64,000 nt of DNA from Escherichia coli (GTDB lineage: Bacteria > Pseudomonadota > Gammaproteobacteria > Enterobacterales > Enterobacteriaceae). Below, in pieces: positions 59,201 through 62,200 of this stretch. Position numbers: made by a program. The DNA is taken from the NCBI RefSeq assembly GCF_003018255.1, contig NZ_CP027440.1. One strand, written 5' to 3'. Position 1 is the first letter of the stretch. The number at the start of each line of letters is the position of its first letter.

Positions 59201-62200
59201 GCGCCAATATGGAAGCGATGCTGGTCAGTCTGGCGATTGCCCGCGGTGGCGATGAATGGGAGGCAGACGTTCTCGCAAAAGCGCATCTGCTCAGTAAGCT
59301 GGAGGCCTGTGACGCCAGTGAGAAAATGCTTGATGAGTGGGATCTGCGTCATCAGGCGTTTCATACTGCAATTGTGGCGGGCTGTGGTTCTCACTATTTG
59401 CTGCAAATGCGTGAACGGTTGTTTGATCTGGCGGCGCGTTATCGATTTATCTGGCTGCGGCGAACAGTGCTTTCGGTGGAAATGCTGGAAGATAAACGCG
59501 ATCAGCACCAGACCCTCACTGCGGCGGTACTGGCGCGAGATACCGCGCGCGCCAGTGAGTTAATGCGCCAGCATTTACTGACGCCAATTCCCATTATCCA
59601 GCAGGCGATGGCTGGCAATTAACTACTCTTCAGGAATACGCAACACTTGCCCCGGGTAAATTTTATCCGGGCTTTTGAGCATCGGTTTATTCGCTTCGAA
59701 GATTTTATTGTACAGATTAGCGTTACCGTAGACCTGTTTGGAAATGGCACTCAGAGTGTCGCCAGACTTAACGGTATAAAACTGGCTGGCAGCGGCTGGT
59801 GTCGCCGTTTTCACCTGATCATCGACACTGGCAATACCGGAAATATTCCCCACCGCAACAAGGATTTTCTCCTTCGCCTCCTGACTTAAGCCGTCACCCG
59901 TGACCGTCGCTTTGCCGTCGGCGATTTGAATGTTCACTTTATCGGCATCAGGTATTCCGGTTTTGTTCAGATGCTCCTGCACCTTCTTCGCCTGATCGTC
60001 TTTATCGTGCTGACCTGTAACCGCGTCCCAGAGTTTTTCTCCGGCATCTTTCACAAAATTGAACAGACCCATAGCTACCTCATTCGTTAACGGAAACACT
60101 CAGAAAGTGTAGCAGAGGAACGCGGCGCGTTAACGCCGCGGGGGTGAACACAGGTTTAATCGCGGGTTTGCACCCAGAACGCGTGAATCAAACCGGGGAT
60201 ATACCCAAGCAGTGTCAGCAGAATATTAATAATGAACGCCCAACCGAACCCTTTACCGAGCAGCACGCCGAGCGGCGGCAGAATGATGGTGATGACGATT
60301 CTCCAGAAACCCATATGTACTCCCTATAAGAAAATTACTCATTGTTTAAAAAGAGATTTTATCTCTTAAGCGTAGTAATTTTAGCGGAGCCTGCCAGTTT
60401 CAGCTTACGCTTTTACTCTCATTTACGCTGCTGAGGCTGGTATATGTTGCATTTTTAGTTTAGAGTTTACTTAATTTAGAAAATACTTAAATATCTATGA
60501 CTGAACTCGCGCAATTACAGGCTAGTGCCGAACAGGCAGCGGCCTTATTGAAAGCAATGAGCCACCCTAAACGGTTGCTGATTCTGTGCATGCTTAGCGG
60601 TTCCCCCGGCACCAGTGCGGGAGAGCTGACGCGCATTACCGGACTGAGTGCCTCTGCAACATCACAGCATCTCGCTCGTATGCGGGACGAAGGGCTTATC
60701 GACAGCCAACGGGATGCCCAACGCATTCTATATTCCATTAAAAATGAGGCGGTAAATGCCATTATCGCCACCCTGAAAAATGTCTATTGTCCGTAAGGAG
60801 TCACTATGGCTTTGACAACCATTTCGCCGCATGATGCACAAGAATTAATCGCACGCGGCGCAAAGTTAATCGATATTCGTGACGCTGATGAATATCTTCG
60901 TGAACATATTCCTGAAGCAGATCTGGCTCCATTATCCGTGCTGGAACAGTCAGGTCTTCCGGCTAAATTACGTCGCGAGCAAATAATATTCCACTGCCAG
61001 GCTGGTAAACGCACCAGTAATAACGCCGATAAATTAGCAGCGATTGCCGCCCCCGCAGAAATCTTTTTACTCGAAGATGGGATTGATGGCTGGAAAAAAG
61101 CAGGATTACCAGTAGCGGTAAATAAATCTCAACCCTTGCCGTTAATGCGCCAGGTGCAGATCGCTGCGGGTGGTTTAATATTAATCTGCGTTATACTAGG
61201 TTATACCGTAAATAGCGGTTTCTTCTTATTAAGCGGCTTTGTTGGTGCCGGGTTACTGTTTGCAGGAATTAGCGGTTTTTGTGGGATGGCAAGGTTGTTA
61301 GATAAGATGCCGTGGAACCAACGAGCTTGAGAAGCGACGCCGGACGCGCCATAGCAGCAACATCCGGCCTCAGTAATTAGATCAGAAAATCGTCGAGAGA
61401 TTTACCTTCTGCCAGCGCCTGAGCGATTGGCTTCGGTGTACGGCCCTGACCGGTCCAGGTTTTAGTTTCACCGTTAACATCGATGAATTTATATTTCGCC
61501 GGACGCGGCTGGCGTTTTTTACCAGCGCGTGGTGCCGCAGCAGAGCTATTACCCAATAACTCTTCCGGGTTAATTCCGTCAGCTTTCATCAGCTCCAGCC
61601 AGGTGCTAATTTTTTCCTGGCGCTCTGCCAGTTCACGCTGCTGTTGTTCTTCTTCTTCACGTCTTTCTTTAGTGACAACCCTGAATTTTTCGAGCATTTC
61701 TTCAAGAACGTCAATGGAGAATTCGCGAGCCATCGCACGGAGGGTGCGAATGTTATTTAAACTTTGTAACATTACGGACATAATAAAGAAAACCTTTTAA
61801 CGCCAAAACAAAAAAGTATTTCGTCGCGTAGTGTAAGCGATCACTTATTATATTTCCACAAAATTTAATCTATTTACAGTCCTGCACGAGATTATTTCAG
61901 CTGTTATTTTCTGAAACCCTCAGAATAATTTCAAGATTATATATTAGCCATTTTGATGAGTAATTTAGGTTATTGGTGAACAGAGCGGCGCTCTCTGCTC
62001 GCTAATTCCGCAAGCCCGACAAAACCAAAGTGAATAAAAATGCAACTCAACAGAATAAAAGAAAACATCTATCACTGGTGCTTTCTGCTGTCAATGTACA
62101 TTATCTGGCATAAAAAATGCTGAAAATGACCCGATCACTACATACACCGAATTCTCTACGCTTATAGCGTTACCCCCCCCCAAACCTTCATGAGTGAAAA

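What the first reader, a model, noticed from the sequence alone, without database searches (positions are those of the whole stretch)
62173..62181. C9 homopolymer tract in the stpA-alaE intergenic region
A run of nine C (tta-CCCCCCCCC-aaacc) sits about 270 bp upstream of alaE in a 660-bp AT-rich regulatory spacer. Tracts of eight or more G/C are rare in E. coli and prone to slippage and sequencing error; tract length could modulate a promoter or simply be an indel hotspot.
Basis: seen in the sequence. Interest (0 to 1): 0.2.

Follow-up and report, generated by a model that had tools for sequence, protein, structure and literature searches.

The report
Unstable C-run between stpA and alaE
A run of nine C's in the spacer between the E. 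coli genes stpA and alaE is real, is found in about 1% of strains, and differs in length (8, 9 or 10) between otherwise identical strains; it looks like an ordinary slippage or sequencing hotspot far from the promoters, not a regulatory switch.

Summary
The C9 run at 62173-62181 is real and is the only G/C run of 7 or more in the 64-kb window. It lies in the 667-bp, 35% GC spacer between stpA (-) and alaE (+), 267 bp before the alaE start codon.

It is a derived, lineage-restricted allele. Most of 5,147 complete E. coli genomes, including K-12, carry an interrupted decamer, CCTCACCCCC. About 57 carry CCTCCCCCCC. Only 56 (1.1%) carry a pure run: C8 in 11, C9 in 37, C10 in 8, C11 in none.

Five genomes with no SNP across 20 kb carry C8, C9 or C10, and the run is the only real indel-variable site there. 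Of pure runs, 19 of 56 differ from the modal length, against 1 of 58 for the interrupted C7 allele. The indel-hotspot reading is therefore supported. Long-read homopolymer miscalls could explain part of the variation and cannot be excluded without reads.

The promoter reading is not supported. The run is about 350 bp upstream of the stpA 5' ends mapped in Shigella and 156 bp or more upstream of the likely alaE promoter. It sits in the least conserved third of the spacer. Low interest.

The parts
62173..62181 (+). C9 mononucleotide run (G9 on the - strand). This is the pure-run allele of a C-rich decamer that is interrupted in most E. coli.
   Evidence: for the sequence. for the alleles in other genomes.
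61782..62448 (.). Divergent stpA-alaE spacer, 667 bp and 34.9% GC. Published work on K-12 reports that Lrp, H-NS and RpoD holoenzyme bind it.
   Evidence: PMC10127797 for Lrp ChIP peaks and Lrp bridging. PMC3946193 for the genomic SELEX row flagged HNS.
61991..62245 (.). Central, poorly conserved segment of the spacer, which contains the run. Mean pairwise identity is 93.2% among 13 haplotypes, against 98.3% and 98.1% in the two promoter-proximal thirds.
61377..61781 (-). stpA coding sequence (H-NS paralogue).
   Evidence: RefSeq annotation of matching genomes.
62449..62897 (+). alaE coding sequence (L-alanine exporter).
   Evidence: RefSeq annotation.
61823..61858 (-). Likely stpA promoter, TGGAAA-17-TACACT at 61858 to 61830. 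The most upstream stpA 5' end mapped in Shigella flexneri M90T is equivalent to 61823. The run lies 350-358 bp upstream of it.
   Evidence: PMC7132871, supplementary table S2. for hexamer coordinates. The coordinate transfer from the stpA ATG is my own.
62337..62365 (+). Candidate alaE-proximal promoter, TTGATT-17-TACGCT. It is a sequence match only and is not validated. The run ends 156 bp upstream of it.
   Evidence: It lies in the conserved alaE-proximal third of the spacer.
62194..62222 (+). Window equivalent (GTGAAA-17-TCCAAT) of the hexamers GTGATA-17-TCTAAT, which a genomic-SELEX paper listed for the alaE side in K-12. It starts 12 nt after the run. It is unvalidated and degenerate in this window.
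   Evidence: PMC3946193.
62230..62258 (-). TTTACA-17-TTTAAT, which the same SELEX paper listed for the stpA side. A transcript from it would read through the run as G9. It is unvalidated, and no 5' end is recorded there in Shigella.
   Evidence: PMC3946193.

Best explanation
The C9 run is a recently derived, lineage-restricted mononucleotide repeat with no demonstrable function.

Origin (inferred). The common, probably ancestral sequence is the interrupted C-rich decamer CCTCACCCCC. An A-to-C change gave CCTCCCCCCC. Loss or replacement of the remaining T then gave an uninterrupted run of 9-10 C.

Behaviour. Once uninterrupted, the run gains and loses single bases. The mechanism I infer is slipped-strand mispairing during replication, which would explain C8, C9 and C10 on otherwise identical chromosomes.

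Consequence (inferred). The run sits in the least constrained middle of the stpA-alaE spacer, hundreds of bp from either gene's promoter. Its length changes are therefore most likely neutral, and its practical meaning is as an indel and sequencing-error hotspot.

Shown here: the allele series, the length polymorphism on zero-SNP backgrounds, its restriction to long uninterrupted runs, and the distances to mapped or candidate promoters.

Inferred: the order of the mutations, replication slippage as the cause, and neutrality.
For: Allele series among 13 haplotypes: CCTCACCCCC (K-12 and most others), CCTCCCCCCC, CCTCCCCCC, CCTCACCCC, CCTCACCCCT and TCTCACCCCC.

Counts with the window's exact 60-nt flanks among 5,147 genomes: C9 in 37, C10 in 8 and C11 in none, C8 in 11.

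Twelve genomes were confirmed by reading the sequence. APEC E14033 (C10), CS18F and E06 (C8), and APEC E12049 and 2009C-3133 (C9) have 0 SNPs over 20 kb.

Among 10 main-clade genomes the run is the only indel-variable site in 20 kb, apart from one evident assembly error. Nineteen other runs of 6-7 nt in the same 20 kb do not vary.

Length dependence: with the same flanks, the interrupted CC-T-C7 allele is C7 in about 57 genomes, C6 in 1 and C8 in 0. That is 1 of 58 off the modal length, against 19 of 56 for the pure run.

A second local haplotype has CCTC7 in 3 genomes and no pure run.

Position: the run is 350-358 bp upstream of the stpA 5' ends mapped in Shigella, and no 5' end is recorded near it. 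It lies in the central segment at 93.2% mean identity, against about 98% for the flanks. No Rfam family matches in the spacer. No consensus promoter overlaps the run.
Against: The database genomes are mostly long-read assemblies, in which homopolymer length is the typical error. Two assemblies from one project show 1-nt deletions even in the short C5 and C7 runs (L004 and L007). 13P477T carries a frameshift in lhgO. Part of the C8/C9/C10 spread may therefore be artefact.

The 20-kb loci contain no other run of 8 or more to serve as a control.

No expression data exist for the different alleles, so neutrality is inferred only from position and lack of conservation.

The spacer is occupied by Lrp and H-NS, so an effect of spacing on these nucleoprotein complexes is not excluded.
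Confidence: 0.72

Rival explanations
1. The length differences are purely sequencing or assembly artefacts. The run has one stable length in vivo, and long-read consensus calling miscounts it.
For: Complete genomes are mostly PacBio or ONT assemblies. 13P477T has a frameshifted lhgO and extra indel columns. PK12 and MB46, from one project, each lack one C even in short C7 or C5 runs. Only this long run varies. The window's own count of 9 cannot be checked without reads.
Against: Three lengths occur, including C10, which is longer than the modal C9. From my own knowledge, long-read errors mostly shorten runs. The variants come from many laboratories and years. Nine of the ten main-clade genomes show no other indel difference in 20 kb. 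From established knowledge of slippage, a 9-10 nt G/C run is expected to be unstable.
Confidence: 0.2
2. The run is a tuning element for the divergent stpA and alaE promoters. One-base changes would alter helical phasing or local stiffness inside the Lrp/H-NS nucleoprotein complex that covers the spacer, and so shift expression of one or both genes.
For: In K-12 the spacer carries strong Lrp ChIP signal, and Lrp bridges it to a site in ygaP. Removing that distant site lowers Lrp activation of stpA more than 5-fold (PMC10127797). H-NS binding is flagged for this spacer (PMC3946193). The length of this segment (9 or 10 nt) varies in several haplotypes.
Against: The pure run is present in only about 1% of genomes and is derived. 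It lies in the least conserved segment of the spacer. It is about 350 bp from the stpA 5' ends and 156 bp or more from the candidate alaE promoter. No Lrp-consensus match lies within 150 bp of it. The ancestral decamer is already 80% GC, so local composition hardly changes. No expression data exist.
Confidence: 0.05
3. The run lies next to or inside a real core promoter or transcript, and its length sets promoter strength or RNA properties. The candidates are the SELEX-paper hexamers 12 nt downstream on the + strand, or the - strand promoter at 62258-62230, whose RNA would contain G9.
For: Shimada et al. list GTGATA-17-TCTAAT (alaE side) and TTTACA-17-TTTAAT (stpA side) for this spacer. Both map within 80 bp of the run.
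Against: These are hexamer picks inside a bound spacer, not mapped starts. In this window the + strand match is degraded to GTGAAA-17-TCCAAT and fails the consensus scan. The Shigella table records no 5' end anywhere between the stpA leader and ygaC. The run lies outside the -35/-10 spacer of both candidates. The region is highly polymorphic.
Confidence: 0.03

Closest known systems
Ordinary replication-slippage hotspots at long mononucleotide runs in E. coli and other bacteria. The steep rise of indel rate with run length comes from mutation-accumulation sequencing and frameshift-reporter studies (my own knowledge). G/C runs were the main indel sites in Pseudomonas MA lines (reviewed in PMC6330053).
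   Same: The run is uninterrupted and 8-10 nt long. The changes are +/-1 nt. They occur on otherwise identical backgrounds. They are almost absent when the run is interrupted to C7.
   Different: No rate was measured here. The evidence is comparative and could be inflated by sequencing error.
Microevolution at poly-C and poly-G tracts in Bordetella pertussis (PMC1891110, listed).
   Same: Poly-C/G tracts differ in length between very closely related isolates.
   Different: The fim example is from my own knowledge, not checked here: in B. pertussis some tracts, such as those in the fim promoters, lie between an activator site and the -10 element and switch expression. Here the run is far from any mapped promoter, and no effect on expression is known.
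The one-nucleotide indel between Spy1336/R28 and Spy1337 in Streptococcus pyogenes M28 (PMC7098570, title and abstract start seen).
   Same: From my own knowledge, not checked in the paper: the indel is in a mononucleotide run in a spacer between divergently transcribed genes, one of which encodes a regulator. The title confirms genetic heterogeneity at this locus among strains of one lineage.
   Different: That paper's title links the heterogeneity to transcript levels and pathogenesis. Here no effect has been shown, and position and conservation argue against one.
Contingency-locus promoters of Neisseria and Haemophilus: poly-G or poly-C in the -35/-10 spacer of porA and opc, and TA repeats at hifA/B (my own knowledge).
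   Same: A hypermutable simple repeat upstream of genes.
   Different: The run is not within a core promoter. It is not conserved as a repeat across the species. No ON/OFF phenotype is known.

Membership tests
Hypermutable mononucleotide repeat (slippage hotspot) | Uninterrupted run of about 8 nt or more | tested here: met
   C9 at 62173-62181. C8-C10 in 56 genomes.
Hypermutable mononucleotide repeat (slippage hotspot) | Length changes by +/-1 unit faster than surrounding point mutation | tested here: inconclusive
   C8, C9 and C10 occur among five genomes with 0 SNPs in 20 kb, and the run is the only real variable indel site there. The genomes are assemblies without reads, so homopolymer miscalls cannot be excluded.
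Hypermutable mononucleotide repeat (slippage hotspot) | Instability depends on uninterrupted length | tested here: met
   Interrupted CC-T-C7 allele: 1 of 58 off the modal length. Pure run: 19 of 56.
Phase-variable (contingency) promoter | Repeat lies inside the core promoter, or between an activator site and the -10 element | tested here: not met
   The run is 350-358 bp from the stpA 5' ends. Its last base is 156 bp upstream of the candidate alaE promoter. No consensus promoter overlaps it. The alaE start site itself could not be retrieved from the literature.
Phase-variable (contingency) promoter | Repeat is maintained across strains of the species | tested here: not met
   A pure run is found in 56 of 5,147 genomes (1.1%). 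Most genomes have CCTCACCCCC.
Phase-variable (contingency) promoter | Repeat length switches expression of the adjacent gene | not testable with these tools
   This needs reporter fusions or RNA measurements on isogenic alleles.
Known RNA family or small gene in the spacer | Match to a curated RNA model, or a conserved ORF across the run | tested here: not met
   No Rfam match at E <= 1 in 61782-62448. The 58-aa - strand ORF at 62091-62267 crosses the run and would be frameshifted by the C8 or C10 alleles, or by the usual 10-nt allele (my deduction).

The most novel reading that the evidence does not exclude
In the lineages that carry the pure run, its length acts as a heritable and reversible tuning knob. 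One-base changes would alter spacing within the Lrp-bridged, H-NS-bound stpA-alaE control region. That would shift the level of the nucleoid protein StpA, the alanine 'safety valve' AlaE, or both. If so, a run near a global regulator's gene would create population heterogeneity in E. coli, a species not known for repeat-based phase variation.
Probability: 0.04. Interest if true: 0.6.

Novelty: new member of a known kind. Interest (0 to 1): 0.15.

Why it matters
The main value is practical. This site will produce spurious or real 1-nt indel calls in variant pipelines for the poultry-associated and related E. coli lineages that carry it, and it should be masked or treated as a length-variable marker.

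It is also a small, clean illustration of how a hypermutable run is born. Two point changes remove the interruptions from a C-rich decamer, and length instability appears at once (1 of 58 against 19 of 56 genomes off the modal length).

It would matter biologically only if run length were shown to affect stpA or alaE expression. Nothing here points to that.

Tried and rejected
1. Metagenome scan for pure runs of 8 or more with the left flank found nothing. A wider pattern showed that only two metagenome contigs and one contaminant genome contig hold this locus at all. These collections are therefore uninformative, and the hoped-for check against short-read assemblies failed.

2. No outgroup comparison (E. 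albertii, E. fergusonii, Salmonella) was possible, because the single genome-contig scan returned only a contaminant contig. The claim that CCTCACCCCC is ancestral therefore rests on its majority across divergent E. coli haplotypes.

3. I could not retrieve the mapped alaE start site or Lrp footprint. Ihara et al. 2017 and Hori et al. 2011 are not held. The Thomason dRNA-seq paper is not held. The Cappable-seq table is truncated. Other supplements lacked the genes. From memory of the Ihara 2017 abstract, the Lrp-protected region is roughly -161 to -83 from the alaE ATG (window about 62288-62366). That would put the run more than 100 bp upstream, but this is unverified.

4. The Lrp ChIP papers give no coordinates fine enough to place the run.

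5. An Lrp consensus scan (YAGHAWATTWTDCTR, up to 3 mismatches) found only two sites, at 62366-62352 and 61935-61921. Neither is near the run.

6. The repeat search found only AT-rich imperfect palindromes downstream of the run, and nothing that involves it.

7. I considered and rejected a coding role. The ORFs across or next to the run are not conserved, and the observed alleles would frameshift them (my deduction).

8. I considered and rejected G-quadruplex or i-motif formation. A single run cannot form an intramolecular four-stranded structure (my own reasoning).

Full report
**Observation.** The window reads GCGTTA-CCCCCCCCC-AAACC, with the nine C's at 62173-62181.
- stpA occupies 61377-61781 on the - strand and alaE occupies 62449-62897 on the + strand. 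RefSeq annotation of matching genomes agrees.
- The spacer is 667 bp and 34.9% GC. 267 bp lie between the run's last base and the alaE ATG.
- This is the only G/C run of 7 or more in the 64 kb. An iid model expects 5.7 such runs, so long G/C runs are depleted and this one stands out.
- A published survey of 1,346 Escherichia genomes gives a mean of 6.22 +/- 0.57 nt for C runs of 6 or more, and an (A+T)/(G+C) run ratio of 11.6 (PMC8928963). That paper does not mention stpA or alaE.

**What the site looks like in other E. coli.** A 129-nt query centred on the run matched 5,147 of 5,426 complete genomes, once each, always on the chromosome. Identities ranged from 100% down to 86%, and K-12 was at 90%.
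- Aligning the spacer from 12 genomes spread over that range showed that the usual sequence is an interrupted C-rich decamer, CCTCACCCCC. K-12 and most others have it.
- The variants seen were CCTCCCCCCC, CCTCCCCCC, CCTCACCCC, CCTCACCCCT and TCTCACCCCC.
- The pure run is therefore a derived allele.

I counted pure-run alleles using queries that carried the window's exact 60-nt flanks.

| Allele | Genomes | Source |
|---|---|---|
| C8 | 11 | |
| C9 | 37 | |
| C10 | 8 | |
| C11 | 0 | |
| CC-T-C7 (same flanks) | about 57 | |
| CC-T-C6 (same flanks) | 1 | |
| CC-T-C8 (same flanks) | 0 | |

- A pure run therefore occurs in 56 genomes, or 1.1%. Many are poultry isolates, including O78:H4 APEC strains.
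- A second, divergent local haplotype has CCTCCCCCCC in three genomes and never a pure run.
- The simplest path is CCTCACCCCC, then CCTCCCCCCC, then loss or replacement of the T to give C9 or C10. The order of these steps is inferred.

**Is the length unstable?** I fetched 20 kb around the site from four C8, four C9 and four C10 genomes and confirmed the run lengths by reading the sequence.
- Five genomes have zero SNPs across the whole 20 kb yet differ in run length: APEC E14033 (C10), CS18F and E06 (C8), and APEC E12049 and 2009C-3133 (C9).
- Among the ten genomes of this clade, the run is the only indel-variable position in 20 kb. The one exception is a G deletion that frameshifts lhgO in 13P477T, which is an evident assembly error.
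- Nineteen other runs of 6-7 nt in the same 20 kb never vary.
- As an internal control, 19 of 56 pure runs differ from the modal length, against 1 of 58 for the interrupted C7 allele in the same flanks.
- This steep dependence on uninterrupted length is what slipped-strand mispairing predicts. That prediction is established knowledge, not measured here.

**Caveat on sequencing error.** The same length dependence is also what long-read homopolymer miscalling predicts.
- Two assemblies from one project lack a C even in short C5 or C7 runs (L004 and L007).
- There is no other run of 8 or more in the 20 kb to serve as a control.
- The metagenome and species-genome scans that might have supplied short-read assemblies held almost no copies of this locus.
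- I therefore rate real polymorphism as likely but not proven. The presence of C10 as well as C8, and the many independent sources, count in its favour.

**Spread of the allele.** The pure run occurs on at least four different 12-20 kb backgrounds. These are the main clade, E04, 2017.09.02CC and this window, which differ from each other by 63 to about 220 differences.
- Across the four backgrounds, a core of about 1.9 kb around the spacer differs from the window at only 2-7 sites apart from the run itself.
- The window's nearest relatives over 25 kb, JNE23-011 and JNE112863 (99.9%), carry CCTCCCCCCC. Read in JNE23-011, the spacer also differs from the window at two SNPs, and at those two sites the window matches the pure-run clade.
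- This favours a single origin followed by recombination of a short segment. That is an inference, and repeated origin from CC-T-C7 is not excluded.

**Position relative to regulatory elements.** Nothing regulatory was found at or next to the run.
- No Rfam family matches in the spacer, and no consensus sigma-70 site overlaps the run.
- In the Shigella flexneri M90T start-site table, the stpA 5' ends map to window-equivalent 61788-61823. The most upstream one sits 7 nt below a TACACT -10 element (TGGAAA-17-TACACT, 61858-61830).
- That table records no 5' end on either strand between there and ygaC (PMC7132871 supplement). The run is thus 350-358 bp upstream of the stpA start.
- The alaE start site could not be retrieved. 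The best sequence candidate is TTGATT-17-TACGCT at 62337-62365, which starts 156 bp after the run's last base.
- From my unverified memory of Ihara et al. 2017, the Lrp footprint lies at about -161 to -83 from the ATG. That would also be more than 100 bp from the run.
- A genomic-SELEX paper lists this spacer as bound by RpoD holoenzyme and H-NS. It names hexamers that map to 62194-62222 (+) and 62258-62230 (-) (PMC3946193). These are unvalidated picks, and the + strand one is degraded in this window.
- In K-12, Lrp occupies the spacer and bridges it to a site in ygaP, with effects on stpA activation (PMC10127797). The resolution of those data says nothing about this 9-bp site.

**Conservation.** Among 13 haplotypes the spacer has three parts.
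- The stpA-proximal third (61782-61990) is at 98.3% mean pairwise identity.
- The alaE-proximal third (62246-62448) is at 98.1%.
- The central segment (61991-62245), which contains the run, is at 93.2%, with a minimum of 89%.
- The run therefore lies in the least constrained part of the spacer. Regulatory constraint is concentrated next to each gene.

**Conclusion.** The best explanation is a lineage-restricted, newly formed, hypermutable mononucleotide run. Some of its apparent variation may come from sequencing error. It lies in unconstrained DNA and has no evidence of a promoter or other regulatory role.
- The closest known things are ordinary slippage hotspots and the intergenic poly-C/G microevolution described in Bordetella (PMC1891110).
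- It fails two defining features of a contingency promoter: position within a promoter, and maintenance across the species.
- A role in tuning the Lrp/H-NS architecture remains formally possible at about 4-5%. Isogenic-allele expression assays would settle it.

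Noticed in passing
window 61991-62245 (central part of the stpA-alaE spacer): This 255-bp segment is unusually polymorphic among E. 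coli. The mean pairwise difference is 6.8% (maximum 11%) among 13 haplotypes. That is about twice the 3.4% seen at four-fold degenerate sites of the flanking stpA and alaE genes in the same genomes. The 129-nt query ranged from 86% to 100% identity across 5,147 genomes. The sample is small (about 129 four-fold sites). The cause is unknown and could be relaxed constraint, old haplotypes or a local mutation bias.
   Followed up: partly
window 61810-61815 (stpA 5' leader; T run on the - strand): There is a second, shorter homopolymer length polymorphism. The window and most haplotypes have A6, while K-12 and MB46 have A7 (alignment column 57). It lies between the mapped stpA 5' end (61823) and the ATG.
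   Followed up: no
window 61982-61994: A GC-rich near-palindrome, AGAGCG-G-CGCTCT, sits in the otherwise AT-rich spacer. It varies at one or two positions in several haplotypes. Part of the adjacent sequence, GGCGCTCTCTGCT, recurs 90 bp downstream at 85% identity. Its function is unknown.
   Followed up: no
L029 (NZ_JAHZMP010000244.1, Terrisporobacter mayombei DSM 6539, 448-bp contig, coverage about 1): This contig carries the E. coli stpA-alaE spacer motif with the K-12-type CCTCACCCCC allele. It is almost certainly E. coli contamination in that assembly.
   Followed up: no
L026 (NZ_CP019273.1, strain 13P477T), locus position about 1954: A single G is missing in a GGG within lhgO. RefSeq annotates the gene as frameshifted, and the other eleven genomes are intact. 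This is a likely assembly error. It is a reminder that the 'complete' genomes used here contain homopolymer miscalls.
   Followed up: partly
window 39001-64000, compared with NZ_AP045067.1 and NZ_AP045072.1: The nearest relatives match this 25 kb at 99.9%, but in two pieces that span about 36.4 kb of their chromosomes. They therefore appear to carry about 11 kb that the window lacks, in or near the ypjA-gabD area. All other genomes are at most 98.1% identical over the 25 kb, so the window comes from a sparsely sampled lineage.
   Followed up: no
window 62091-62267 (-) and 62190-62225 (+): A 58-aa TTG-start ORF crosses the run, reading GLGGGN across the G9. An 11-codon ATG mini-ORF starts 9 nt after the run. 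The observed length alleles would frameshift the first, and the second lacks its ATG in K-12 (ATT). Neither looks like a gene.
   Followed up: partly
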